Assembly (NCBI GenBank): GCA_964414985.1
Contig: CAYPXA010000002.1
Span: forward strand, 87,513-151,512
Direction of reading: 5' to 3'
From: an uncultured Methanosarcinales archaeon
GTDB lineage: Archaea > Nanobdellota > Nanobdellia > Woesearchaeales > JAGWAF01
DNA: 64,000 nt
Part shown: positions 14,562 to 26,564 of the stretch, piece after piece
Layout of the letters: every line of letters begins with the position of its first letter
How positions within the stretch are numbered: the first letter of the stretch is position 1
The notes under the pieces: model-generated
Database searches by the model: none
Told to the model about the DNA's origin: nothing
What the model saw: the letters and a program-made list of their open reading frames with translations, nothing else
Translations under genes and position numbers: made by a program

Positions 14562-15125
14562 GTGTTTAGTACGACTATTATGGAGATAAACAGAAATGAG
14601 GACAAAATCCTCAAGCTTTTTTTTGACGAGCCTTTAAGGAAATTCAGGTTTAAGGATATTGCAGCGCTTTCAGGGCTTCACAGGGACAATGCAAACAACT
14701 GGCTCTCCAGCCTCTTGAAGAAAAGCCTGATACTAAGGCACAAGCCCAAGGGAAAATATCCTTATTATACTTCAAACCATATGAATGCATCCTTCAGGAA
14801 CCGCAAAAGGATTTATGCCCTCACAATGCTTTACGAATGCGGGCTGCTTGATTTGCTCTGCTCAATCAAAGAAGCTTCTGCAGTCATTCTCTTTGGAAGC
14901 TTTGCAAGAAGCGACTGGCACAAGGGCTCAGACATTGACATTTTTCTATATGGATTGGGAAATCAGCCTGACTTCTCTAAGTTTGAAAAAATTCTTGGAA
15001 GGAAAATCGAAATATTTTCGTGCAAAGACAGGAAATCCTTAAATTCCCTGAACCCTCACCTTCTAAGAAACATTTCAAGGGGGTATTACCTTAAGGGAAA
15101 CATTCCTCCTGCAGGTGAAGCATAA
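14562..15125 (+). CDS. minimal nucleotidyltransferase (MNT) with N-terminal wHTH; antitoxin-like partner of HEPN
   Basis: GSFARSDWHKGSDIDIF = GS-x10-DxD Pol-beta NTase signature. Confidence 0.7.
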   Translation: MFSTTIMEINRNEDKILKLFFDEPLRKFRFKDIAALSGLHRDNANNWLSSLLKKSLILRHKPKGKYPYYTSNHMNASFRNRKRIYALTMLYECGLLDLLCSIKEASAVILFGSFARSDWHKGSDIDIFLYGLGNQPDFSKFEKILGRKIEIFSCKDRKSLNSLNPHLLRNISRGYYLKGNIPPAGEA

Positions 15126-15590
15126 ATGGAAAAGACGATTGAAGATGCATACGACTTCTGCATTGCAGAAGGCAAAATTATTGCAAAGGATGAGGTTGAC
15201 ATAAACAAGGCAATATCCCTTTTTGAGTCTGCTGAAAATGAGATAAGGATTGCAAAAAAGCTTGAATCCATAAGCGAAAATGCAGAAAGCCACCTTTTTA
15301 AGACATATTATGACGCTTTAAGGCTTTTTGCTGATGCGCTGCTTGTTTTTGACAGCACAGAATGCCTCAACCATTACTGCCTTTTTGCCTGCATTGCAGT
15401 CAAGCACCCTGAGCTTGAGCTGGACTGGGAGACTATGGAAAGCCTTAGGCAGATGAGAAACAGGATATGCTATTACGGCAAGACAATAGGCAGCCACGAG
15501 TGGAAGATGCAGCGGCTCAAGCTTGATATATGCATATCCTCGCTTAGGTCTGCAGTCTCAAGCAAGATTAGCGGGCATAAGAGCTGCTGA
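15126..15590 (+). CDS. HEPN domain protein (toxin-like partner of MNT)
   Basis: R-x4-6-H motif (RNRICYYGKTIGSHE); ATG immediately follows TAA of MNT gene (15123-15128 TAAATG). Confidence 0.65.
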   Translation: MEKTIEDAYDFCIAEGKIIAKDEVDINKAISLFESAENEIRIAKKLESISENAESHLFKTYYDALRLFADALLVFDSTECLNHYCLFACIAVKHPELELDWETMESLRQMRNRICYYGKTIGSHEWKMQRLKLDICISSLRSAVSSKISGHKSC

Positions 15591-15639: not shown

Positions 15640-16422
15640 ATGAGAATCACTCTTGACATCTCCAAATCGCTTGAAAGGAATGCAGAAGCCTACTTTGAAA
15701 AGGCAAAGAAGTCCAGGAAAAAGATAGAAGGAGCAAGAGAGATAGTTGAAAAGACAAAAAAGAAGCTTGAGGCTGCGCTCAAAAGGCAGTCAGAGGAGTG
15801 CGCTGCAGCAGACGAAAAGCAGAAGCTCAAAGACAGGAAAAAGAGATGGTATGAAAAGTTCAGGTGGTTCATAACTTCAGACGGGTTTATGGTTGTTGGA
15901 GGCAGAGATGCAACAACAAACGAGATAATAATCAAGAAGCACGCTGAAAAAGGAGACCTTGTTTTTCACACTGACATGGCAGGCTCGCCTTTCTTTGTAA
16001 TAAAATCTGAAGGAAAGCAGATTTCTGAAACAGCCATAAATGAGACTGCAGACGCAACCTGCTCTTTCAGCAGGGCTTGGCAGCTCGGGCTTCCAAAGCA
16101 GGATGTCTTTTATGTCAATCCAGAGCAGATTACAAAAACTCCAAAGCCAGGAGAATACCTCCAGAAAGGAGCTTTCATAATCAACGGAAAGGCAAACTAT
16201 GCAGATAATAAAATAAACTGCGCATTGGGAATAACTGCTGAAGGAGAGATAATGGCAGGGCCTGCAGAGGCTGTTAAAAAGCACTGCGAAAAATATGTAG
16301 AGATTGTGCAGGGCAATGAAAAATCATCAAAGATAGCAAAGCAGATACTCTACAAAATCGGCGGAGACCTTGACGGAATAATAAGGGCGATGCCCACAGG
16401 CGGCGTCAAGATAAAAAAATAA
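15640..16422 (+). CDS. NFACT-R (DUF814) domain protein with N-terminal coiled coil
   Basis: FITSDGFMVVGGRDATTNEIIIKKHAEKGDLVFHTDMAGSPFFVIK matches DUF814/NFACT-R core. Confidence 0.6.
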   Translation: MRITLDISKSLERNAEAYFEKAKKSRKKIEGAREIVEKTKKKLEAALKRQSEECAAADEKQKLKDRKKRWYEKFRWFITSDGFMVVGGRDATTNEIIIKKHAEKGDLVFHTDMAGSPFFVIKSEGKQISETAINETADATCSFSRAWQLGLPKQDVFYVNPEQITKTPKPGEYLQKGAFIINGKANYADNKINCALGITAEGEIMAGPAEAVKKHCEKYVEIVQGNEKSSKIAKQILYKIGGDLDGIIRAMPTGGVKIKK

Positions 16423-16497
16423 GATTTCTTGATTTTTAGGCAAAGCGCCAGTTTTATATATTGTCTATTATCTCCCTTAAATCAAGTGGGTGAGAAT

Positions 16498-16896
16498 ATG
16501 GGTCAAGATAAGTATTCCAAATATACTGCAAATCAGATAATGGACATGTTTCATCAGAAGGGATGGAACTTTTATGCGCGCCATGCTGGAATCAGCCCTG
16601 AAAAGACAATTGGCGAGCATCTTGCAGACAATCTGGATATTGATACTCCTTATGTCCTTCTTCCATCTGCAAACAACCCTTCTGATGAAAAGCAGGTATT
16701 TGCAGCTCTTGAAGCGCTTGCAATAAGGCTCAACAGGGAAATGCCCACAATCCGTGTTAAAGGAATGGATTATATTATTCTGGGGCTTACACTTGAAGAT
16801 TGCTGTGTAAAAATTCATTCTCCTGAAGGAATAAGAGTCAATTATCCTTCATTTATTCAGGCAATTAATTCTGTAGTGGATGCAAACGTGCAGTAA
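16498..16896 (+). CDS. hypothetical protein (132 aa from ATG 16498 with GGTGAG SD)
   Basis: ORF 16429-16896; internal ATG preceded by SD-like GGTGAG. Confidence 0.4.
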   Translation: MGQDKYSKYTANQIMDMFHQKGWNFYARHAGISPEKTIGEHLADNLDIDTPYVLLPSANNPSDEKQVFAALEALAIRLNREMPTIRVKGMDYIILGLTLEDCCVKIHSPEGIRVNYPSFIQAINSVVDANVQ

Positions 16897-17040
16897 ATTC
16901 AGCTTGATTTTTATTTCAGCCCATTGAGCAGAGCTTCAATCTCATTGAAAACTTTCTTCTTTTTTTCGCTGCTGCCTGCAACCTGGATTTTTGCAAGGGC
17001 TACATCGCTTGGCTTAAGCCGGATTCCTTTCAAACAGAAA

Positions 17041-17107
17041 CATTTATATATCTCATATTTACAAATATGTCCTAATTTAGTAACAATTATGTTACAAATA
17101 TGTAAAC
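17041..17107 (+). promoter_or_regulatory. promoter/operator: TATA-like CATTTATATATCTC plus two 12-bp direct repeats TTACAAATATGT (17059-17070, 17092-17103) ending 5 bp before RHH gene ATG
   Basis: Read from sequence; 33-bp spacing (3 helical turns). Confidence 0.45.
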
Positions 17108-17254
17108 ATGGCAAAAAGAGTCTCAATTTCGCTTGATGCAGAGCAGATTAAGGTGCTTAACTCACTTAAAGGCCTTGGGACAAAGGATGCTGAAAAGGTA
17201 AAAAGCATTTTTCTGGCTTATCTGTCAGAAAAGGGGTATTTTGATAAAAAATGA
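17108..17254 (+). CDS. ribbon-helix-helix (CopG/Arc-like) small DNA-binding protein, 48 aa (not in ORF track)
   Basis: MAKRVSISLDAEQIKVLNSLKGLGTKDAEKVKSIFLAYLSEKGYFDKK: beta-strand (RVSISLD) then two helices typical of RHH; stop TGA overlaps ATG of next gene (ATGA). Confidence 0.4.
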   Translation: MAKRVSISLDAEQIKVLNSLKGLGTKDAEKVKSIFLAYLSEKGYFDKK

Positions 17255-18063
17255 AATTCGTGAAAGAATCAGACATAAGGCTGAAGCAAAGAAGCAGGGA
17301 TGCCAAAAAGGGAGATTCAGGAAAAGCGCTTATTATAGGCGGAAATGAGGATTATGCAGGCTGCCTTGCGCTTGCAGGAGTTGCTGCGCTTATGACTGGC
17401 ATAGACTGGGTTACTGTTGCAGCTCCTGAAAAGCCTGGCTGGGCTGTCAGCGCTCTTTCGCCTGACCTTGTGGTCAAAAAATTCAAATGCAGCCATTTTT
17501 CAGAAAAGCACGCTGATGAAATAATCAGGCTCAGCAGGGATTTTGATGCTGTGCTTATTGGAAACGGAATGGGGCTGAAATCCGCATCCTTTGCAAGAAA
17601 GGTCGCGCAAGGGGTAAACAAGCCGATTGTCATCGACGCAGATGGCATAAAATCAGTGAGGGTGGGAGAAGTGAGGAAGGCTGTCCTCACACCCCACATT
17701 AAAGAATTTGAGATTCTCCTTGAGAACTCAGGCATTAATGAGGATGAGCTCCAGAAAAATCTCGGCAGCAATGTTGTGCTGCTCAAGGGAAGGGTTGACA
17801 AAATAATCTCAAAGAATAAAACTGCCTTCAACAAGACCGGAAATGAGAGAATGGCTGTTGCAGGAACCGGAGATGTGCTTGCAGGCCTTGTCCTCGGCTT
17901 TCTTGCGCAGGGCTATTCCCACTTTGATTCAGCATGCTGGGCTGCCTACATAAACGGAAAAGCAGGAGATAGGCTTAAAAACAAGAAGGGATACTCATTC
18001 ATAGCTTCAGACCTGGCAGAAGAGATAGGCGCAATAATGAAAAAAAGGCTTGCAAACAAATAA
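17251..18063 (+). CDS. YjeF C-terminal domain protein, ADP/ATP-dependent NAD(P)H-hydrate dehydratase
   Basis: KALIIGG...AGC.ALAG.AAL..G.D.V..A; LIGNGMG; TPH; AGTGDVLAG motifs of carbohydrate-kinase-like YjeF-C. Confidence 0.8.
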   Translation: MKFVKESDIRLKQRSRDAKKGDSGKALIIGGNEDYAGCLALAGVAALMTGIDWVTVAAPEKPGWAVSALSPDLVVKKFKCSHFSEKHADEIIRLSRDFDAVLIGNGMGLKSASFARKVAQGVNKPIVIDADGIKSVRVGEVRKAVLTPHIKEFEILLENSGINEDELQKNLGSNVVLLKGRVDKIISKNKTAFNKTGNERMAVAGTGDVLAGLVLGFLAQGYSHFDSACWAAYINGKAGDRLKNKKGYSFIASDLAEEIGAIMKKRLANK

Positions 18064-18073
18064 GGTGATTTTC

Positions 18074-18331
18074 ATGGAAGACATAGCTCAGCTTAGAAAG
18101 AATGCAAAGGCGCTCGAGCCTGTTGTAAGAATAGGCAAATCAGGGCTTTCAGATTCTGTAATATCTGAAATCAAAAAGCATCTTGAGCAGAAAAGGCTTA
18201 TCAAAATAAAGATGCTTAGGAGCTTTATAGGCACATCAGACAAGAAAGCTGCTGCACAGCAGCTTGCAGACAAGACCAATTCAATACTTGTCCAAAGGAC
18301 AGGGCTTGTTGCAGTGCTTGCAAAGAAGTAG
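18074..18331 (+). CDS. YhbY/CRM-domain RNA-binding protein
   Basis: LRKNAKALEPVVRIGKSGLSDSVISEIKKHLEQKRLIKIKM resembles YhbY (GKNGLT..v..i...L..heLiKvk). Confidence 0.65.
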   Translation: MEDIAQLRKNAKALEPVVRIGKSGLSDSVISEIKKHLEQKRLIKIKMLRSFIGTSDKKAAAQQLADKTNSILVQRTGLVAVLAKK

Positions 18332-18378
18332 AAAAGTATATAATCAAAAACTGATAATATATCCCAAAAAAGAGGTGA

Positions 18379-19806
18379 ATGATGGCTGAAGCAGGCGGAG
18401 TCAAGATAATCCCCAAATCCGAGTACTTTAAGCCCAAGGAGGACGGAGGGCTTGGGTATAAAAGGGAATGGATGGAAATGGGCAAAGACCAGCTTATTGA
18501 GACTGATTTCCCTGAATCACTTTACAAATGGAGATGCGTCTACGAAACTCCAAACAAGTCAATTGAAGAGCCTTATTTCTGGCTTCTAAACTATATGAGG
18601 CTCGACTTGGGCTTTCTCTCGATTGAGAAGATTACAGACGTATTTTCAGCTTCAGAGCATTCTGCATTTTTCGGAGTTGCCCAGCAGAGGATAGGCCTGC
18701 AGCAGGACAAGGTTGTCCAGTACCTTGCAACAATAGGCAAGATGATAAAAGACCTTTTCCAGCTTGTTAGGGAGCTTAGGATAATCGATGAAAGGATTGG
18801 CTACTACAAAGACAGCATGGACGAGAAAAGCAAAAGCAGGGGAAGCGCTGAAATAACCCTCAAGGGAATCTGGGTTGACATGGTTGAGGGCGGCTCAAAA
18901 AATCCCGGCTCAGTCTACGGCCTGGCAAGGGAGCTTCAGTTCACAACTCTTCCAGATTTGTTCTACGCAATCCACCCAAAGTCTGCAAAGGATGTTGATA
19001 TGCTTGTTGATGCTCTTGACTTCAACCAAAAGGTAAAGGAAGTGCTGAAGAGGAAGCTAAGGCAGTTTCTTGACTGGAAGCAGTCAACATTCGGAGAGCT
19101 GAATGTAAGAAGGACATTTACTGTCAAATATCTAAGGCAGCACTATGACATAATCAACATGTATATGGCATGGGTAAGGCCTTATTTAAGGAACCTTAGA
19201 AGGCTTAAAGTATCTGGCGAGATGGCAGACTCTCCTGACCTTGTTTCAGCATTTGAGGGAAGCATGATGGAAGTTGAAGTGCTTGCAAAATTTGTTCCTG
19301 CCAACAACAAAAAATACTTTGGCTGCCTTAATATCCACTTTGATTTCAGGACAAGGCCTTCGCTGAACTACCAGCAGGAAGGCTACCAGAGAGGGCCAAT
19401 CCACGTCGGAGAGGCAAAGATTTTCTGGAGATTTTATGCATGGACGCAGGAAGACATTGACAATTACAAGGCAATGAGGGCATATGAGGACTTTGAGATG
19501 CTTTCATCCATAGACAGCTCTGTAAAGTCTGCAATGGACGCATTGGGAACTGAAATGATGAACTACCTTAAGGAAGCAGGCGAGCAGTTTCCCTCAAAAG
19601 AGCAAAAAAAGGAAGAGCTTGCGCCAAAGATGAGGCTTTTCGGATTTTTGCCTCCTGCACGGCCAAAGAAGGAGAAGGCAGGCAAGCCTCCAAAGCCGGA
19701 CAAGTTTAAAGATGAGAAAGAGTTTGGCAAGGCAAAGGCTGCAAAAGGCCTTGCATGGCTTGCTTACAAGAACTTCAAGCAGTCCCACGGCCTTGCAACA
19801 TGGTAG
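18379..19806 (+). CDS. hypothetical 475-aa protein, first gene of uncharacterised 3-gene operon; Lys-rich C-terminal tail
   Basis: GAGGTG SD 7 nt upstream of ATG; no recognisable catalytic or NTP-binding motif. Confidence 0.55.
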   Translation: MMAEAGGVKIIPKSEYFKPKEDGGLGYKREWMEMGKDQLIETDFPESLYKWRCVYETPNKSIEEPYFWLLNYMRLDLGFLSIEKITDVFSASEHSAFFGVAQQRIGLQQDKVVQYLATIGKMIKDLFQLVRELRIIDERIGYYKDSMDEKSKSRGSAEITLKGIWVDMVEGGSKNPGSVYGLARELQFTTLPDLFYAIHPKSAKDVDMLVDALDFNQKVKEVLKRKLRQFLDWKQSTFGELNVRRTFTVKYLRQHYDIINMYMAWVRPYLRNLRRLKVSGEMADSPDLVSAFEGSMMEVEVLAKFVPANNKKYFGCLNIHFDFRTRPSLNYQQEGYQRGPIHVGEAKIFWRFYAWTQEDIDNYKAMRAYEDFEMLSSIDSSVKSAMDALGTEMMNYLKEAGEQFPSKEQKKEELAPKMRLFGFLPPARPKKEKAGKPPKPDKFKDEKEFGKAKAAKGLAWLAYKNFKQSHGLATW

Positions 19807-19851
19807 CCAGGCAGCATTAAGCTTAAAAGCAGGCAAATCATTGTTCAGACT

Positions 19852-20466
19852 ATGGCAGGAATCGACGATTTCAAAAAGATGTCCCCTGAAGAGAGGATAA
19901 AGAAGCTTAAGCAGCTTGAGGCTGATAGGAGAAAGGAGCTTGCCGAAGCTGAAAAGATGATAAAGGAGTCTGAAGGCGAGCTTGCGAATGAGGAAAAGAT
20001 AAGGCAGGAAATTCCTGTGCCCCAGATGGCTGCAGTAGACATAAACAACCTTTTCACAAAAGAGGAAAAGGAGATTTTTGCAGCAAAAAGGTACCAGTCA
20101 TCAGGCCCTCTCAAGGATGATTCAGGAGAGCCTGCAAAAAAGCAGAAAAAGGAAAAATCCCTTGAAGAGGAGATTGAGGATTCAAGGGTTGCAAAGCTGA
20201 CTGATGAGCAGGCTGCAAGCCAAAGGCAGTACGGAGCCCAGCTTGCAAGGGAGCAGCCAAGCCAGCTTTACGTGATGGCAAAGGAGGCATACAGCGAATT
20301 CAGGGAGACAGGAATGGTCGACACTGAAAAAATGTATGCGCTTGATGTTGCAATAAGGATGAAGGACAGCGAATCTCCTTCAGGCAATTACAAGGCAGCA
20401 TCTGAAGAGGCGCAGGAGCAGTTCGGCTCTGTCAAAAGCATAATAAAATACCTTAGAGGAAGATAA
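19852..20466 (+). CDS. acidic coiled-coil protein (204 aa), middle gene of operon
   Basis: K/E-rich heptad-like sequence; stop TAA overlaps ATG of next gene (TAATG at 20464-20468). Confidence 0.5.
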   Translation: MAGIDDFKKMSPEERIKKLKQLEADRRKELAEAEKMIKESEGELANEEKIRQEIPVPQMAAVDINNLFTKEEKEIFAAKRYQSSGPLKDDSGEPAKKQKKEKSLEEEIEDSRVAKLTDEQAASQRQYGAQLAREQPSQLYVMAKEAYSEFRETGMVDTEKMYALDVAIRMKDSESPSGNYKAASEEAQEQFGSVKSIIKYLRGR

Positions 20467-22580
20467 TGGAATTTCAATCATCATACTACAGCCCGATGGA
20501 CAGGAGCTATTCAGGCAACAAGCTTCCAGACATAAAGCCTGCCGAATCGCTTGAGCAGCCGATAATACCAATAAGCCAAATAGGCCAGACTGTAACTGAA
20601 GGAAGCAGGTTTGGAAACCTTATCCAGACAGCGACAGCAGCAATAAGGGCTGGAACAGGCAGGATAGAGCTTCAGACCCAGATGGGCGGCGGAGGAGAGC
20701 CTGTCGGAGCTGAAAGCTACGGCAAAGAGGCAAGGGAAGCATTGAGGGAGCTGGCAAGGGCAAACCAGGTCCAGTTCACTTCAGTCCACACTCCTACTTC
20801 AGTTGGAAACCTTTCAGGATTCAACCCCCAGCAGGGCAACTTTAATGACGAGCACAGGAAGATAGAGCTTGATGAAGTCAAAAAAGCAATAAGGTTTGCT
20901 GCAGACGCAGCCCAGGGAGGCGCTGTTGTAGTCCATACAGGAGAGTTCCATAGGCCAATCTTTGACGCTGACTGGAACAAGAAGGGAAAATGGGCAGACT
21001 CATTCATAGGCTATGATGAGGAGCCTGAAAAGACAGTCATGCACCTTGTGGATGACAGGACAGGCAGGGTAATTTCTGAAGTCAGGAGAAACCAGGAGGT
21101 TTACAGGCCTGTTTGGAACAAATACAAAGGCGATTCTTCCTACAAGGACAGCAAGGGCAATTCAGTCCAGAAAGGCGACTATGTTGATTATGAAGGAAAT
21201 AAGATTCAGAACTTTGAGGAAAGGGTGCCTGAATACGATGCAGAAAAAGGCCTTTTCAAGGTTGAAAAAAAGACTTGGAAGGACTTTGAGGAAGAGGCAG
21301 AGGAGAGAAACACAATCCTGCAGAAGCAGTATGGAAGGCAGCTCAAGCCTGAAGAAAGGGTAACTCCTGAAGAATCTTTTATGCAGGCACAGCTGGAAAG
21401 CAACATAGGAGTTGCAAAGGGCTGGGCTCTCAACTACGGAATGAGGGTCAAGGATGAGCTTGAGGCGCTCGGAAAAGTCAAGAAGGCGCTTGAATACTAT
21501 GAAAAGCTTGAGAAGCAGGCAAACCCTGAAGAGCTTTTTGCAATGCGAAAGGATGCAGGCTCAATGCTCGGAAGGTTTGGAGTGCCTCCAGAGCTTACTC
21601 TTTCTGAAAAAAAGCTTCCTTCAGAAATGCTCAGGGAAGGGCTTTGGGAGATAAGAAAGCAGATAGAGTCTTCAAAAGATATGGCAACATCGCAGATGCA
21701 GCAGGCAAAGGAGCAGGAGCTTATGAAGCAGCACGCTGTGTCAATCGACAAGTATGCAAAAAAGAAGTCTTTCGGCGGCTTTGCAGAGGCAGGGCTTCAT
21801 GCTTACAAGGAGACAAAAAACAATCCTTATGTGAAAAAGGATGTTTTTGTAGCTCCTGAAAACATATTTCCTGAAATGGGATTCGGAAGCCATCCTGAAG
21901 AGCTTATTGAACTTGTTAAAGGTGCAAGAAAAGAGATGGTAAAGAAGCTGACTGAAAAGTATATTGAAGACCCTTCAGGAAGAAGGGATGACGATGGCAA
22001 GCCGATAATGGTTGCAAACCCTGACTTTCAGGGCATTGAAAAGTCAGAGGCTGAAAAGCTTGCAGAAAAGCACATCAAGGCAACTTTTGACACACAGCAT
22101 ATGGGAATGTGGTGGAAGCACTTTAAAGCAAAGCCTGGAGAATCAGAAAACCAGACTAGAAAAAGGTTCAACTCATGGTATATGGATGAAGTTGAAAAGA
22201 TGCAGAATGAGAAAATCATTGGAAACATCCATCTTGTTGACAGCATTGGCGGCGGCCACCATCACCTTCCTGCAGGACAGGGAGACCTTCCTGTTGTTGA
22301 TGCAATCAGGCTGCTCAAGAAAAAAGGCTATGGGGGCTTCATCAATTCAGAGGCTTATGAGGAAGACAGGTTTTCTCCTGGAAGGATTGTCATAGAAACC
22401 TGGGCTGCATTCGGAAGCCCAATCCAGAGGGGCTATGCGTCAATGGCTCCAGGCGGGCCGCAGGCATGGTCTGACGTGAGAAGCGGCTATTTCGGCCAGA
22501 CTTACCCCCCAAGATTTGTTTTCGGAGCGTATGCGCCTTCAAACGACTGGACGCTGTGGAGCCAGACGCCGATGGAGTAA
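20466..22580 (+). CDS. xylose-isomerase-like / endonuclease-IV-like TIM-barrel protein with ~320-aa charged coiled-coil insertion
   Basis: Ordered metal-ligand motifs VHTP, HTGEF, PENIFPEMGFG, DTQHMG, IHLVDSIGGGHHH, SEAYEE matching AP-endonuclease-2/xylose isomerase fold; insert between HTGEF (~res 157) and PEN (~res 478). Confidence 0.6.
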   Translation: MEFQSSYYSPMDRSYSGNKLPDIKPAESLEQPIIPISQIGQTVTEGSRFGNLIQTATAAIRAGTGRIELQTQMGGGGEPVGAESYGKEAREALRELARANQVQFTSVHTPTSVGNLSGFNPQQGNFNDEHRKIELDEVKKAIRFAADAAQGGAVVVHTGEFHRPIFDADWNKKGKWADSFIGYDEEPEKTVMHLVDDRTGRVISEVRRNQEVYRPVWNKYKGDSSYKDSKGNSVQKGDYVDYEGNKIQNFEERVPEYDAEKGLFKVEKKTWKDFEEEAEERNTILQKQYGRQLKPEERVTPEESFMQAQLESNIGVAKGWALNYGMRVKDELEALGKVKKALEYYEKLEKQANPEELFAMRKDAGSMLGRFGVPPELTLSEKKLPSEMLREGLWEIRKQIESSKDMATSQMQQAKEQELMKQHAVSIDKYAKKKSFGGFAEAGLHAYKETKNNPYVKKDVFVAPENIFPEMGFGSHPEELIELVKGARKEMVKKLTEKYIEDPSGRRDDDGKPIMVANPDFQGIEKSEAEKLAEKHIKATFDTQHMGMWWKHFKAKPGESENQTRKRFNSWYMDEVEKMQNEKIIGNIHLVDSIGGGHHHLPAGQGDLPVVDAIRLLKKKGYGGFINSEAYEEDRFSPGRIVIETWAAFGSPIQRGYASMAPGGPQAWSDVRSGYFGQTYPPRFVFGAYAPSNDWTLWSQTPME

Positions 22581-22597
22581 TCTGCTGAAAAATTAAA

Positions 22598-23779
22598 TCA
22601 CGCTGCATCCAGCTTTTTGTTTGATTTCTTTATCAGAATAATAGCCAATGAGCCGATTGCAAGCGCGATAACTCCCTGCATAAAAAGGGCAAAGAATATT
22701 GAATACATGTCTGCCAGGCACCCAAAAATAGGGAACAGGATAATGCCTATTATGCTCTCAAAAAATCCATTTAGCGAATGGACTGTCGCCCTGTGATGGG
22801 ATTCAGTGTGCTGGTTTATGCAGCCGCTTATTACAGGCCTTATAGCGCCCCAGCTGAACTGGCCTAAAAATATTATCAGGATTCCTGCAGGCGAAAAATG
22901 CAGCGCCAGCATCATTGTGCTTAAGAAAACTCCAATCAAGATTATTATGAGCATTCTTAATTCTCCAACCCTTTTTTCAAGTGTGTGGGAGATTCTTGAG
23001 CTGAATGCAGAAAACAAGAGCCATACAAGGTAGATTGCCCCAAAGTATTTCAGCTCAATCCCATTCATCTGCAGGTAAGGCTGAAAAAACTTGTGGCTTG
23101 CAATCATTATTGAAAGCATGAAGCCGTAGAAAAGGATAGCCCATTTTATTTTTGGGTGCTTCAATGTGAATCCTGCAGCTTCTTTAAGGTGAAGGAAATA
23201 CCTCCTGTCTTCAGACTCCTTCCTTCTTCTGGGCTCTTTGAGCAGAATTGCAAAAACAGCAGCTGCAATAAGCGAGCACATTGTAGCTGCAACAGGAATC
23301 CTTAATCCGGAGTCTGCCATAATTCCTCCGAAAAATGCAGCAATGCCCATTGCTGCAAGCCCGAATGAAGATGCCTTTCCCTCAATCTTCTTGAATTCTT
23401 TTTCCCTTTTCAAGTCCTTAAGTGTGTCATAAATAAATGCAAAATCGCTTCCTGACCTGAATGCAAGCCTTGCACCGAAAAGCACAGAGCCCAGCAAAAA
23501 AATCCAAAATTCATGTGCAATAAGGAGTATGCCCATGTATGCTGCTCCTGACACTGCAGAGATTATAAGGCAGGTTTTTCTGCCGTAATAGTCTGCAAAG
23601 ACTCCGCTTGGAACTTCAAGAATCAGCTGAGAGGCTGCTATTACTACGCTTAGCAGAAACATCTGGGTGTAGCTAAGCCCTGCATCAAGGAAAAAAATAG
23701 TGAATATCGGCAGCCAGAAGCTGAACTGCATGAAAAATGAATATGCATAATACTTTCTTATGTTGGACTCTTCTTTCAT
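22598..23779 (-). CDS. major facilitator superfamily transporter
   Basis: 12 hydrophobic segments, G..aDr.GRK-like motif (ADYYGRKT); start chosen at MKEES to avoid overlap. Confidence 0.7.
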   Translation of the reverse strand: MKEESNIRKYYAYSFFMQFSFWLPIFTIFFLDAGLSYTQMFLLSVVIAASQLILEVPSGVFADYYGRKTCLIISAVSGAAYMGILLIAHEFWIFLLGSVLFGARLAFRSGSDFAFIYDTLKDLKREKEFKKIEGKASSFGLAAMGIAAFFGGIMADSGLRIPVAATMCSLIAAAVFAILLKEPRRRKESEDRRYFLHLKEAAGFTLKHPKIKWAILFYGFMLSIMIASHKFFQPYLQMNGIELKYFGAIYLVWLLFSAFSSRISHTLEKRVGELRMLIIILIGVFLSTMMLALHFSPAGILIIFLGQFSWGAIRPVISGCINQHTESHHRATVHSLNGFFESIIGIILFPIFGCLADMYSIFFALFMQGVIALAIGSLAIILIKKSNKKLDAA

Positions 23780-23781
23780 TT

Positions 23782-24315
23782 CTATGTCAGGCTTATCTCG
23801 TAAAGAACTGTTGCAACACCAGGATTTGCTAGCTTCCACCACTTGTAGGCTGTCCTTTTCTCAGTGCTTTCGTAGCTCCTGTTGTTGTTTTGTATCTGGT
23901 CCATCTTCCACTCTTCAGTAAACTGCTTGATTTCATCCCAGGAGATTGTCTCTTCCTTCCTGAATGCAATTTTTGAAGTTTCCTGCTCTGCAGCCTCATA
24001 CTTGTAGACAGCAGACTTTGTCTCGCCAAGATAGCTGAAAAGGCTGGAATAGTCAAGCTTTTTCACATAGCCTTCCAGAAACTGCATGTATTCCCTGCTT
24101 TCAATTTCCTTTTTTTCTTTTTTAAGGGAAATTTCTTTGCTGTCTTTTTCGCCCTTCTTTGCAGCTGGCTTCTTGCCTGCTTCAGTTTTTTTGCCGGAAG
24201 ATTCAGGCTTTGCCTCATTTTCAAGGGAAGGTTTGATTTTTTTTGCAATTGCATCTGAAGCAGCCTTCTGCGCTTCCCTTTCCACTTTTGCCTCAAGCTT
24301 TTCCTCTTCCTGCAT
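23782..24315 (-). CDS. Lys-rich hypothetical protein
   Basis: 177-aa ORF, K/E-rich N-terminus. Confidence 0.4.
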   Translation of the reverse strand: MQEEEKLEAKVEREAQKAASDAIAKKIKPSLENEAKPESSGKKTEAGKKPAAKKGEKDSKEISLKKEKKEIESREYMQFLEGYVKKLDYSSLFSYLGETKSAVYKYEAAEQETSKIAFRKEETISWDEIKQFTEEWKMDQIQNNNRSYESTEKRTAYKWWKLANPGVATVLYEISLT

Positions 24316-24359
24316 GAGCTATCAAAAGTTATAAATAATATATAAACTTATGGGGGCTT

Positions 24360-24896
24360 ATGGAAGGCGCTGAAGCAAGATTCGAGAGGATAAAAGATGC
24401 ATATGATGATTTCTATAAGGAGATTCTCAAAACAGGCCAGCTTCCTATGAGAGACACTGAAGTGGGTTTCTGGGGCACTGCAGCCTGCGACGACATATTT
24501 GAGCTTTTCAAAAAGGCAGGCCTGCACAACTACAGGAATTTCATAGACCTGGGAAGCGGAGACGGAAAGGTTGTGATGATTGCATCGCTTTTCACAAAGG
24601 CGTCAGGAGTTGAGTTTGACAGGGAGCTGCACGACAAGGCTGAAGAGATAAGGGCAAAGCTGGGGATTGATGCAGAGTTGATATGCGGAGACTTCCTTAA
24701 AATGGACATTTCAGGATATGACCTTGTTTTTATCAACCCTGACAAGGCTTTCCACAAGGGTGTTGAGAAAAAGCTTAGGGAAGAGCTGAAGGGAACTCTT
24801 ATTGTATACAACATGGTTTACCAGCCTTCAGGCATGAGCAAGGGAAGGACTTTCTGGATGGGCCAGACTCCTGCAACTGTCTATACTCCGAAATAG
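24360..24896 (+). CDS. class I SAM-dependent methyltransferase
   Basis: Motif I DLGSGDG, acidic post-I residue, GDF motif. Confidence 0.65.
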   Translation: MEGAEARFERIKDAYDDFYKEILKTGQLPMRDTEVGFWGTAACDDIFELFKKAGLHNYRNFIDLGSGDGKVVMIASLFTKASGVEFDRELHDKAEEIRAKLGIDAELICGDFLKMDISGYDLVFINPDKAFHKGVEKKLREELKGTLIVYNMVYQPSGMSKGRTFWMGQTPATVYTPK

Positions 24897-24950
24897 TCAC
24901 AAAACTATTTAAAGCATTTTTCAGGTATATATGCTAAACCGGGGTTTTAG

Positions 24951-25766
24951 ATGGAATTCAACATAAAACAGAAGAAGCACCATAATATTCCAAAGTACAT
25001 TGATGATGACTACAGGCTTGCCCTCAAGTTTTCTGAGAACATTCACAAGGAGCTTGGCGAATTCCTAAAGGCTGTTGTGCTTTTCGGAAGCGCAGGCAGG
25101 AATGAGAAGACTTTGTATGAAAAAGACATTGATGTAATGATTGTTGTCAATGATTTAACAGTTGTCATAAGCCAGGAAGTGATTGAGGCTTACAGGATAA
25201 TAACTGAAAAGGTTGCTTCATCAGTCTCAAGAAGGCTTCACATCACCACAATGAAGATGACTGCGTTCTGGGACTATATGAAGGCAGGAGACCCGATTGC
25301 AATAAACATACTAAGGGATGGAGTGCCTCTTTATGACACAGGATTCTTTGAGCCTATGCAGGTGCTTCTTTTCCAGGGAAGGATAAGGCCGACAGAGGAA
25401 AGCATCTGGGTATATTTCACAAGGGCTCCAACAACTCTTGTAAATTCAAGATGGCATTTGCTTCAGGCAACTTTGGATTTGTACTGGGCAGTAATCGACT
25501 CTGCGCACGCAGCTCTTATGAGAATGGGCGAGATTCCGCCTTCTCCTTCAAAGGTTGCAGGCTTGATTAATGATAAGATGGTCAAAAAAGGCATTGTCTC
25601 CAGGAAATACGCAAACACAATGCATTTCTTCTACGAGCTTTCAAAGAAGATAACTCATAGGCAGCTGCAGAATGTTACAGGCCCGCAGTACGAAAGGTAC
25701 TTTAAGGAAGCAAACGAGTTTGTAAGCGCAATGCAGAAAGTCATTGAGAACAGGCACATTAAGTAA
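24951..25766 (+). CDS. nucleotidyltransferase-domain protein with C-terminal HEPN-like region
   Basis: FGSAGRNEKTLYEKDIDVMIVV = GS-x-DxD NTase signature; C-terminal R-x6-H (RKYANTMH). Confidence 0.6.
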   Translation: MEFNIKQKKHHNIPKYIDDDYRLALKFSENIHKELGEFLKAVVLFGSAGRNEKTLYEKDIDVMIVVNDLTVVISQEVIEAYRIITEKVASSVSRRLHITTMKMTAFWDYMKAGDPIAINILRDGVPLYDTGFFEPMQVLLFQGRIRPTEESIWVYFTRAPTTLVNSRWHLLQATLDLYWAVIDSAHAALMRMGEIPPSPSKVAGLINDKMVKKGIVSRKYANTMHFFYELSKKITHRQLQNVTGPQYERYFKEANEFVSAMQKVIENRHIK

Positions 25767-25815
25767 GCTGTTGGTTCTAGGACGGTTTTTGAGTTGGTTC
25801 CAAGCAAGCTATTGT

Positions 25816-25911
25816 GCATTGCCACCCAGCGCAGTACTTATTTTGGACATTGTTCAAAAGGTGGCTCCTCAACAGAAGAGGTTCAATACTCAACACGAAG
25901 CTCGAGCAATG
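25816..25911 (+). repeat. MITE-like intergenic repeat, copy 1 (~96 bp)
   Basis: Shares >80% identity by eye with 35035-35131 and reverse complement of 56053-56148; begins GCATTGCCACC. Confidence 0.7.
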
Positions 25912-25961
25912 AAATCTATTTGAGTGATATCTTTTTATAATCCTCCTCCATAACATCCATC

Positions 25962-26564
25962 ATGAACTTCAGCAATGAAAAAAAGCAGTGCCTTGAAAAG
26001 TCTGATAAATCCAAAAAGCAGTCTGTAGACATCCGAATCAGGGAGATTGTTGATTTCATAAACTCCCTTGAAGACTACTACACTACAAGCAGCTGTTCAG
26101 GCAGGATACTGGTCATTGAAAATCTTGAAAGCAGAAAGAAGAATGAGGCTGAATGGCTTTTTGCATCTCATGAAAAGGCTTCTGTCCAGGACATAAAAAA
26201 TGCGCTGGCATCACCAAGCCGGAATTCAGCATGGCTCAAGCAGGAAGGCTTCATACTCCACATCTGCTGCAGGACTCTTGATGCTGCAGACAAAATAATC
26301 TCCCTTGCAAGGGACTGCGGGCTTAAGCGAAGCGGCGCAATATCCTTCAGCAAGAGGATTATTGTTGAAATATTGGGCACAGACCGCATTGAGGCAGTGC
26401 TTGCAAGGCATGGAGCTGTCATTGCATCTGACTCTTACATAGAAGCAGCTGCTGAAGAGGCCAATTTGAAGATGGAAAAGAACTTTGAAAGGCTGATTCT
26501 GTTTTTTGATGCGCTTAAGCGCAGGGCTCTAAATAATGCAGGGAATGCTCCAAAAGATTTATAA
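25962..26564 (+). CDS. tRNA wybutosine-synthesis protein 3-like (TYW3/Taw3 family)
   Basis: ~200 aa with SSCSGRI motif characteristic of TYW3. Confidence 0.55.
   Translation: MNFSNEKKQCLEKSDKSKKQSVDIRIREIVDFINSLEDYYTTSSCSGRILVIENLESRKKNEAEWLFASHEKASVQDIKNALASPSRNSAWLKQEGFILHICCRTLDAADKIISLARDCGLKRSGAISFSKRIIVEILGTDRIEAVLARHGAVIASDSYIEAAAEEANLKMEKNFERLILFFDALKRRALNNAGNAPKDL

What the first reader, a model, noticed from the sequence alone, without database searches (positions are those of the whole stretch)
18379..22580. Uncharacterised, translationally coupled three-gene operon ending in a TIM-barrel enzyme split by a giant coiled-coil insertion
Three genes sit on one strand (475 aa, 204 aa, 704 aa). 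The first has a GAGGTG SD. Genes two and three share a TAATG stop/start overlap. The 704-aa protein carries, in order, the metal-ligand motif set of the xylose-isomerase/endonuclease-IV TIM-barrel fold: VHTP, HTGEF, PENIFPEMGFG, DTQHMG, IHLVDSIGGGHHH and SEAYEE. However, ~320 residues of K/E-rich predicted coiled coil are inserted between the HTGEF strand and the PEN motif. The 204-aa middle protein is itself an acidic coiled coil. The 475-aa protein has no recognisable motif and a Lys-rich tail. I know of no described system with this arrangement. The coiled-coil elements suggest a scaffolded or filament-associated enzyme rather than a soluble repair nuclease.
Basis: partly seen in the sequence, partly recalled or inferred. 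Interest (0 to 1): 0.65.

Follow-up and report, generated by a model that had tools for sequence, protein, structure and literature searches.

The report
Conserved orphan operon with capped metalloenzyme
This is a real three-gene cluster, kept together in Woesearchaeota (tiny uncultured DPANN archaea), that pairs two proteins unlike anything known with an endonuclease-IV-like metal enzyme carrying a large extra domain on its active-site face; no function has been described, so it is a sound but only moderately surprising target for experiment.

Summary
Three same-strand genes lie at 18379-22580: A (475 aa), B (204 aa) and C (704 aa). The stated motifs, the GAGGTG and the TAATG overlap are all present.

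- **Distribution.** All three have homologues almost only in records labelled Woesearchaeota or Nanoarchaeota. At least 168 species-level genomes encode C.
- **Clustering.** In 80 loci found through C, 43 are A-B-C. Exceptions fall in a few clades, and orders A-C-B and C..A-B also occur. Three loci found through A all contain C.
- **The insertion.** Residues ~166-455 leave the beta4-alpha4 loop on the catalytic face. AlphaFold models them confidently as a beta subdomain plus a helical bundle, not a canonical coiled coil. No sequence relative was found.
- **A and B.** Neither has a Pfam, NCBIfam or PDB relative. A also has no significant structural match.
- **Context.** The genes sit in a conserved housekeeping block, not a mobile or defence island.

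Best reading: a lineage-specific multi-subunit metallo-(phospho)esterase of unknown substrate. The filament idea has no support. It is undescribed: a new variant of a known enzyme kind with orphan partners.

The parts
18050..18331 (+). YhbY/CRM-domain RNA-binding protein gene (93 aa). It is a frequent upstream companion of A.
   Evidence: Pfam PF01985, E 1.3e-21. It lies directly upstream of A on the same strand in 24 of 42 loci, and it stays with A-B when C is separated (L047).
18332..18378 (+). Intergenic leader of A: an A/T-rich TATA-like box (AAAAGTATATAAT, 18332-18344) and a GAGGTG Shine-Dalgarno (18372-18377).
   Evidence: Read directly from the sequence. Promoter function is inferred, not tested.
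18379..19806 (+). Gene A: 475-aa (probably 474-aa, starting at 18382) orphan alpha/beta protein. It has two very long antiparallel helices, a basic disordered tail and the invariant C-terminal motif MW..YKN[YF]KKAH.ML.W.
19579..19803 (+). Lys-rich tail of A (aa 401-475): a disordered linker followed by two conserved terminal helices.
   Evidence: Net charge +10; conservation of the terminal motif. pLDDT is below 50 for 402-420 and about 90 for 442-469.
19852..20466 (+). Gene B: 204-aa, fast-evolving, mildly acidic protein with a conserved N-terminal SPEERIKKLK...PxPQ...VDI..LF..EEKE.F motif region.
   Evidence: Only 32 word-based homologues; alignment A3. No Pfam or PDB relative. Median 35% identity, against 52% for A and 45% for C. 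In some genomes it lies after C (L079, L085, L086).
20466..22580 (+). Gene C: 704-aa xylose-isomerase-like/AP_endonuc_2 TIM-barrel metalloenzyme with a large inserted domain.
20556..20960 (+). C barrel, N-terminal half (aa 31-165: beta1-beta4), with ligands H108 (beta3) and H157 (beta4) and invariant E160 and R163.
   Evidence: Strand positions; conservation in 201 sequences.
20961..21830 (+). Inserted domain of C (aa 166-455) in the beta4-alpha4 loop: a beta subdomain (190-270) plus four long helices (271-452). The last helix probably serves as barrel helix alpha4.
21831..22415 (+). C barrel, C-terminal half (aa 456-650: beta5-beta8), with ligands E465, D542, H545, H589, H598, H600 and E629.
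   Evidence: Motif-by-motif match to E. coli Nfo: DTCH, HLND, DRH, LET.
22416..22577 (+). C-terminal tail of C (aa 651-704). It is predicted disordered but ends in the near-invariant motif FGAYSPSNDWTLWSQVPME-COOH. It is a candidate docking or arm-exchange peptide.
   Evidence: pLDDT below 50. At least 95% conservation of F686, G687, Y689, P691, S692, W695, W698, P702 and E704. The role is inferred.
24360..24896 (+). Small DOT1-like SAM methyltransferase gene. It is the usual downstream neighbour of C elsewhere, displaced here by two minus-strand genes.
   Evidence: Pfam PF08123, E 6e-6. It lies downstream of C on the same strand in 28 of 71 loci, including loci where C has no A or B nearby. 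A functional link is not established.

Best explanation
A-B-C is a vertically inherited core-gene cluster of Woesearchaeota-type DPANN archaea, often preceded by a YhbY/CRM gene. It most likely encodes a cytoplasmic multi-subunit metalloenzyme.

C is the catalytic subunit. It is a (beta/alpha)8 barrel of the xylose-isomerase-like superfamily, closest to the uncharacterised archaeal protein MJ1311. It keeps all nine residues that hold the three-metal centre of endonuclease IV. It should therefore bind two or three divalent metal ions and most likely hydrolyses a phosphoester bond. A ~290-residue domain grown out of the beta4-alpha4 loop sits on the catalytic face and is proposed to select or cap the substrate.

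A and B are non-enzymatic partners made from the same transcript. A is an orphan fold with a long helical stalk and a basic tail; B is fast-evolving. They are proposed to bind C, possibly through C's invariant but intrinsically disordered N- and C-terminal peptides. The substrate is unknown. A nucleic-acid end or lesion is the leading guess.

Shown: gene conservation and clustering, the barrel fold, ligand conservation, the position and foldedness of the insertion, and the lack of relatives for A, B and the insertion.
Inferred: metal binding, hydrolase chemistry, complex formation and the substrate.
For: **Cluster**
- 80 species-level loci found through C: 43 A-B-C, 7 A-C, 7 B-C, 1 C..A-B and 1 A-C-B. 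Of the 21 with C only, 12 have too little upstream sequence to judge.
- The exceptions fall into about 4 clades.
- Three loci found through A all contain C; two of them have the order A-C-B.
- Median spacing is 32 nt for A-B and 8 nt for B-C.

**Enzyme**
- PF01261 scores above its gathering threshold.
- Eight barrel strands are modelled.
- Ligand positions H108/H157/E465/D542/H545/H589/H598/H600/E629 correspond by strand order and motif to Nfo H69/H109/E145/D179/H182/H216/D229/H231/E261.
- These positions are 91-100% conserved in 201 sequences. Where position 598 is not His it is mostly Asp, the Nfo residue.

**Insertion**
- It lies in a beta-to-alpha loop, which in TIM barrels is the catalytic face (established knowledge of the fold).
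- It is modelled at pLDDT about 90, with overall pTM 0.77, and contains invariant residues.

**Other**
- No transmembrane segments, so all three proteins are expected to be soluble.
- A and C evolve at the rate of neighbouring housekeeping genes.
Against:
- The wider 10-gene block of unrelated housekeeping genes is also syntenic, and its genes also overlap. Adjacency and TAATG overlaps therefore carry less weight in this lineage.
- C is separated from A-B in about 4 clades, and B is undetectable in some genomes.
- C hits no NCBIfam model, including those for endonuclease IV.
- The Nfo signature H-x-x-Y (Tyr72) is not kept; C has H-T-P-x-x-[IV]-G-N.
- From my memory of Uechi et al. 2014 (paper not held): MJ1311 has the nine ligands but lacks a DNA-binding groove and has no known activity.
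Confidence: 0.42

Rival explanations
1. C is an ordinary sugar or sugar-phosphate isomerase/epimerase, as several databases name it. The insertion is a lineage-specific decoration, and A and B are unrelated neighbours retained by general synteny.
Against: Five further conserved His ligands (H108, H157, H545, H598, H600) match the endonuclease-IV three-metal site. By my recollection, not tested here, the mononuclear epimerase site does not use them. No NCBIfam isomerase or epimerase model is hit. The trio survives order shuffling (A-C-B, C..A-B), which passive synteny does not predict. A-C adjacency (42 of 57 informative loci) is more frequent than that of any other neighbour.
Confidence: 0.17
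2. C is the lineage's DNA-repair AP endonuclease, a highly derived endonuclease IV orthologue. The inserted domain, together with A (basic tail) and B, serves as DNA-binding or repair-complex scaffold.
Against: No NCBIfam model is hit, nfo included. E. coli Nfo is not detectable by profile comparison. The Tyr72 position of the H-x-x-Y motif is not conserved. I could not check whether these genomes also carry a canonical nfo or xth. The neighbours are RNA- and translation-related (YhbY, NFACT-R, TYW3), not repair genes.
Confidence: 0.15
3. One reading: the helical elements of A, B and C's insertion pair into a scaffold or filament that carries the enzyme. That is, a cytoskeleton-like or structural assembly.
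Confidence: 0.08
4. C is a protein- or peptide-modifying metalloenzyme analogous to MbnB or TglH (DUF692 TIM barrels that need an adjacent partner protein). It would act on B or on a conserved tail.
Against: Similarity to DUF692 proteins is much lower than to MJ1311 or EndoIV. There is no short precursor-peptide gene. B is poorly conserved and is sometimes absent.
Confidence: 0.04

Closest known systems
MJ1311 of Methanocaldococcus jannaschii (PDB 3WQO, 'D-tagatose 3-epimerase-like protein', function unknown)
   Different: MJ1311 is 293 aa with no insertion. C has about 290 extra residues in the beta4-alpha4 loop, plus conserved disordered N- and C-terminal tails and the two partner genes. Whether MJ1311 has partners was not examined.
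Endonuclease IV (Nfo; PDB 1QTW, 3AAM, 2X7W, 5ZHZ)
   Different: There is no significant sequence-profile match and no NCBIfam hit. The Tyr72 signature position is not kept. D229 is usually His. C also has the large insertion and the operon partners. DNA cleavage is untested.
Ketose 3-epimerases and sugar(-phosphate) isomerases of PF01261 (D-tagatose/D-allulose 3-epimerase, UlaE, YcjR, IolI)
   Different: C has five extra conserved His ligands, about 12-18% identity only, a large insertion and no specific family model hit.
MbnB/MbnC and TglH/TglI (DUF692 TIM-barrel enzymes with an obligate partner protein)
   Different: They are much more distant. They use different ligands and chemistry (iron-dependent oxidative peptide modification). 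A and B are unrelated to MbnC or TglI as far as sequence and fold searches show.

Membership tests
Xylose isomerase-like TIM barrel / AP_endonuc_2 (Pfam PF01261) | Score above the Pfam gathering threshold | tested here: met
   59.7 bits against a cut-off of 31.1, E 4.6e-16, in two stretches flanking the insertion. All listed homologues carry PF01261.
Xylose isomerase-like TIM barrel / AP_endonuc_2 (Pfam PF01261) | (beta/alpha)8 barrel fold superposable on family members | tested here: met
Endonuclease IV (Nfo) family | Nine ligands of the three-metal centre (H69, H109, E145, D179, H182, H216, D229, H231, E261 in E. coli Nfo) | tested here: met
   Counterparts H108, H157, E465, D542, H545, H589, H598 (Asp in 15 of 201), H600 and E629 lie at the ends of the same strands and are 91-100% conserved. 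The beta3-beta5 correspondences rest on strand order, not on a significant alignment.
Endonuclease IV (Nfo) family | Recognition by curated family models or significant sequence similarity to Nfo | tested here: not met
   No NCBIfam hit at E <= 1. hhalign against E. coli Nfo gives probability 0.2%. No EndoIV chain appears in the PDB sequence searches.
Endonuclease IV (Nfo) family | DNA-recognition elements (H-x-x-Y-L-I-N signature with Tyr72; DNA-binding loops) | tested here: inconclusive
   C has H108-T-P-x-x-[IV]-G-N115-[LM]-S-G. Asn and the hydrophobic residues are kept, but there is no Tyr at +3 and one extra residue (compared). The loops could not be compared without coordinates.
Endonuclease IV (Nfo) family | AP-endonuclease / 3'-diesterase activity | not testable with these tools
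   Needs biochemistry.
Ketose 3-epimerase / sugar-phosphate isomerase subfamilies | E-D-H-E metal ligands | tested here: met
   E465, D542, H589 and E629 are at least 98% conserved.
Ketose 3-epimerase / sugar-phosphate isomerase subfamilies | Significant similarity to a characterised subfamily or curated model | tested here: not met
   Only a local 60-residue match to UlaE (E 7e-5) and marginal D-tagatose 3-epimerase hits (E 0.005-0.03) with the family profile. No NCBIfam model is hit.
Conserved functional gene cluster (operon) A-B-C | Co-occurrence and adjacency across divergent genomes, robust to rearrangement | tested here: met
   42 of 57 informative C-anchored loci have A upstream. 43 of 80 are A-B-C. 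All 3 A-anchored loci contain C, with the order A-C-B in two. Exceptions fall in about 4 clades.
Conserved functional gene cluster (operon) A-B-C | Co-transcription | not testable with these tools
   Only spacing is available: medians of 32 and 8 nt, and a TATA-like box upstream of A.
Coiled-coil / filament-forming proteins | Canonical heptad register and homology or fold match to a known filament former | tested here: not met
Mobile, viral or defence module | Hits to phage, plasmid or defence libraries, or a variable genomic context | tested here: not met
   No significant PHROGs hits. No significant PADLOC hit (only B vs Csa3, E 0.027). No phage or plasmid tblastn match. The cluster is embedded in a conserved housekeeping block.

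The most novel reading that the evidence does not exclude
(YhbY)-A-B-C encodes a previously unrecognised, Woesearchaeota-wide nucleic-acid (possibly RNA- or ribosome-linked) processing or repair machine. In it, an endonuclease-IV-type three-metal nuclease has acquired a new substrate-recognition domain. Two orphan-fold proteins recruit it through its invariant disordered terminal peptides.
Probability: 0.2. Interest if true: 0.7.

Novelty: new variant of a known kind. Interest (0 to 1): 0.5.

Why it matters
Woesearchaeota are abundant, uncultured, reduced-genome archaea whose biology is largely inferred from annotated genes. This cluster behaves like a core function: it is conserved at the rate of housekeeping genes across order-level divergence. 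Yet two of its three proteins, and the 290-residue domain of the third, have no detectable relatives.

Defining its activity would assign a function to hundreds of 'hypothetical' or mis-named ('sugar phosphate isomerase') proteins. It could reveal how an endonuclease-IV-type three-metal site is re-targeted by a cap domain. It would also give a first functional handle on MJ1311-like proteins. A is in addition a candidate new fold.

Tried and rejected
**Searches for relatives that found nothing useful**
- NCBIfam, PHROGs and PADLOC scans of all three proteins: nothing significant.
- Per-member Pfam scans of the A, B and insertion-only alignments: only scattered sub-threshold hits (DivIVA, Mitoc_L55).
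- PDB sequence-profile searches for A, B and the insertion: none significant.
- Profile-profile comparison among A, B and the insertion: no internal homology.
- An exhaustive HMM search with the A profile: 697 clusters, all of the same roughly 450-550-aa family, with no annotated outgroup visible.

**Endonuclease IV comparison**
- hhalign of C, whole or barrel-only, against E. coli Nfo was not significant. It gave motif-level correspondence only.
- The sampled loci contain no canonical Nfo or insertion-less paralogue. This is not a whole-genome test.

**Ideas dropped**
- That A's C-terminal helix is a membrane-targeting amphipathic helix. Its hydrophobic moment is low (0.21) and it is modelled at high pLDDT.
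- A recurrent fourth gene in the B-C gaps. The gap contents are heterogeneous.
- Rosetta-stone fusions of A, B and C. None appear in the length distributions.

**Literature and source records**
- Literature searches (MJ1311; Woesearchaeota with TIM barrel or EndoIV; DPANN hypothetical protein families) found no description of this cluster.
- The MJ1311 structure paper is not held.
- An exact look-up of the window's own record failed.
- No tRNA or Rfam element lies in the window.


Full report
**1. Observation**

- GAGGTG (18372-18377) precedes ATGATG. The identical database protein is 474 aa, so the second ATG is the likelier start.
- B's stop and C's start share one base (TAATG).
- Pfam PF01261 (AP_endonuc_2, xylose-isomerase-like TIM barrel) matches above threshold in two stretches that flank a long unmatched middle.
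- A and B hit nothing in Pfam, NCBIfam, PHROGs or PADLOC.

**2. Distribution**

- C has more than 457 homologues. The 120 listed are all about 670-740 aa and cover 96-100% of the query at 44-74% identity.
- Where sources give names, almost all are Woesearchaeota or Nanoarchaeota, called 'sugar phosphate isomerase/epimerase', 'TIM barrel protein' or 'hypothetical'. The insertion is therefore a constant part of the family.
- A has 2303 homologues, none with a Pfam domain. An exhaustive profile search finds 697 clusters at 50% identity, all of the same size class.
- B is fast-evolving and gave only 32 word-based hits.
- A scan of one genome per GTDB species found 168 genomes encoding C.
- No phage or plasmid record carries A or C.

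**3. Clustering**

I built HMMs for A, B and C and ran them on six-frame ORFs of the 80 loci anchored on C.
- Arrangements: 43 A-B-C, 7 A-C, 7 B-C, 1 C..A-B, 1 A-C-B and 21 C only. Twelve of those 21 have less than 2.5 kb upstream and say nothing.
- The nine informative 'C alone' loci and the 'no B' loci fall into a handful of C-sequence clades. They reflect a few rearrangements rather than random scatter.
- Three look-ups anchored on A all found C next to it. In two of them the order is A-C-B, and the downstream 163-165-aa gene matches the B profile (E 4e-16 and 1e-20).
- Median spacing is 32 nt for A-B and 8 nt for B-C.
- Caveat: the cluster lies in a longer block that is also partly conserved, and whose genes also abut or overlap. 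The block runs NFACT-R, NAD(P)HX dehydratase, Na+/H+ exchanger, YhbY/CRM, A, B, C, small DOT1-like methyltransferase, nucleotidyltransferase, TYW3.
- Overlap alone is therefore weak evidence. The stronger argument is that the trio persists more often than any other adjacency and survives reshuffling of its internal order.
- YhbY lies directly upstream of A in 24 of 42 loci and stays with A-B when C is elsewhere (L047).

**4. C: fold and active site**

- AlphaFold with a 24-sequence alignment gives pLDDT 80.4 and pTM 0.77, with eight barrel strands.
- The family profile finds MJ1311 in the PDB at E 2.8e-8.
- I took the E. coli Nfo sequence from NC_000913.3 and checked that the textbook ligand numbers fall on His, Glu or Asp in it.
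- The nine ligands map by strand order and local motif as follows (Nfo first, C second):

| Barrel element | Nfo | C |
|---|---|---|
| beta3 | H69 | H108 |
| beta4 | H109 | H157 |
| beta5 | E145 | E465 |
| beta6, DT-x-H | D179, H182 | D542, H545 |
| beta7, H-L-x-D | H216 | H589 |
| Loop, x-x-H-x-L-x-G-x-G | D229, H231 | H598, H600 |
| beta8 | E261 | E629 |

- The C-terminal three motifs also line up in an otherwise insignificant hhalign.
- In 201 distinct C sequences these positions are 91-100% conserved. When position 598 is not His it is mostly Asp, the Nfo residue.
- E160, R163, H476, W549 and D592 are also invariant.
- The site is therefore under strong selection and resembles a multinuclear EndoIV/MJ1311-type centre more than the single-metal E-D-H-E site of ketose epimerases, which it also contains.
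- C is not an orthodox endonuclease IV. No NCBIfam model is hit, Nfo is undetectable by profile, and the Tyr of the H-x-x-Y signature is missing.

**5. The insertion**

- It begins right after beta4 (VVVHTGE) and ends before beta5 (APEN), so it elaborates the beta4-alpha4 loop.
- In TIM barrels these loops form the catalytic face (established knowledge of the fold). The domain must therefore sit over or beside the active site.
- It is modelled with pLDDT about 90 as a beta-rich subdomain (190-270) plus four long helices (271-452). The last helix probably doubles as barrel helix alpha4.
- It has its own invariant residues: W170, D196, R198, G200, R253 and W271.
- It is 36% charged, but a crude heptad scan finds no canonical coiled-coil register.
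- An insertion-only profile finds nothing in Pfam or the PDB.

**6. A and B**

- A is modelled at pLDDT 77.5. It has an N-terminal beta-meander, helices of 50 and 66 residues joined by a small helical tip, a second beta-meander, a disordered basic linker, and two conserved terminal helices ending in an invariant Trp.
- B has a conserved N-terminal region, a variable acidic linker and a weakly conserved C-terminal part.
- None of the three has a transmembrane segment.
- A, B and the insertion are mutually unrelated.

**7. Unexplained**

The first 30 and last 54 residues of C are predicted disordered. Yet the tail ends in one of the most conserved motifs of the protein, FGAYSPSNDWTLWSQVPME-COOH. 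A also ends in an invariant motif. Docking peptides for partners, or arm exchange between subunits, are the obvious ideas. Neither was tested.

**8. Mechanism and rivals**

- The best-supported reading is a lineage-specific, cytoplasmic, multi-subunit metalloenzyme. C provides a two- or three-metal hydrolytic centre, its inserted domain gates or selects the substrate, and A and B are accessory subunits.
- The substrate is unknown. The EndoIV-type site, A's basic tail and the YhbY/CRM neighbour point loosely to nucleic acid.
- Rivals considered:
  - a plain sugar isomerase or epimerase with unrelated neighbours;
  - a derived DNA-repair endonuclease IV;
  - an MbnB/TglH-like protein-modifying enzyme.
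- None is excluded outright. The filament idea has no positive evidence beyond the presence of long helices.

**9. Known relatives and novelty**

- C is a member of PF01261 and is nearest to MJ1311, itself of unknown function. MJ1311 was listed as the predicted EndoIV homologue of M. jannaschii in PMC2770678.
- My recollection is that its structure paper reports the nine EndoIV ligands but no DNA groove. I could not check this because the paper is not held.
- Nothing in the searchable literature describes the insertion, A, B or the cluster.
- I rate it a new variant of a known enzyme kind, accompanied by two orphan families.
- Interest is moderate. Conserved hypothetical clusters are common in DPANN archaea. 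This one is widespread within Woesearchaeota, evolves at a housekeeping rate and is structurally distinctive.

Noticed in passing
window 14562-15590: A nucleotidyltransferase (NTP_transf_2, E 5.5e-9) is followed immediately (15125/15126) by a 154-aa ORF with no Pfam hit. The layout resembles a minimal nucleotidyltransferase/HEPN-type pair.
   Followed up: partly
window 22598-24315 (minus strand): An MFS transporter gene (22598-23842) and a K/E-rich 177-aa orphan (23782-24315) sit between C and the DOT1-like methyltransferase (24360-24896). In many other genomes that methyltransferase directly follows C, so this looks like a local insertion into the conserved block.
   Followed up: partly
window 15640-26564 and loci L003-L086: A ten-gene order is partly conserved across order-level divergence: NFACT-R, NAD(P)HX dehydratase, Na+/H+ exchanger-TrkA, YhbY, A, B, C, small methyltransferase, nucleotidyltransferase, TYW3. 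Genes abut or overlap throughout. This is unusually stable synteny for unrelated functions.
   Followed up: partly
L040 6178-8328; L069 281-2498: C is split into two consecutive ORFs in these two loci. The cause could be a frameshift, a pseudogene or an assembly error.
   Followed up: no
loci L006, L010, L011, L014, L016 and about 30 others: Many GTDB representative records that carry this cluster and its Woesearchaeota synteny are titled 'uncultured Methanosarcinales archaeon (binchicken ...)'. This is probably a placeholder or wrong taxonomy label.
   Followed up: no
L038 9566-9916; L051 9654-9908: A small CxxC...CxxC zinc-ribbon ORF (79% identical between the two loci) is inserted between B and C.
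   Followed up: no
L085 8423-11186; L086 8439-11287: In these genomes the order is A-C-B and C is longer (736-746 aa). Where the extra residues lie was not examined.
   Followed up: partly
L084 14211-15452: A RuBisCO large-subunit gene lies about 3 kb downstream of the cluster in the 1.0-Mb contig of Woesearchaeota archaeon B3_Woes.
   Followed up: no
window 20466-20555 and 22416-22577: The N-terminal 30 and C-terminal 54 residues of C are predicted disordered yet carry some of the most conserved motifs of the family (PMDR.Y; FGAYSPSNDWTLWSQVPME at the very C-terminus).
   Followed up: partly
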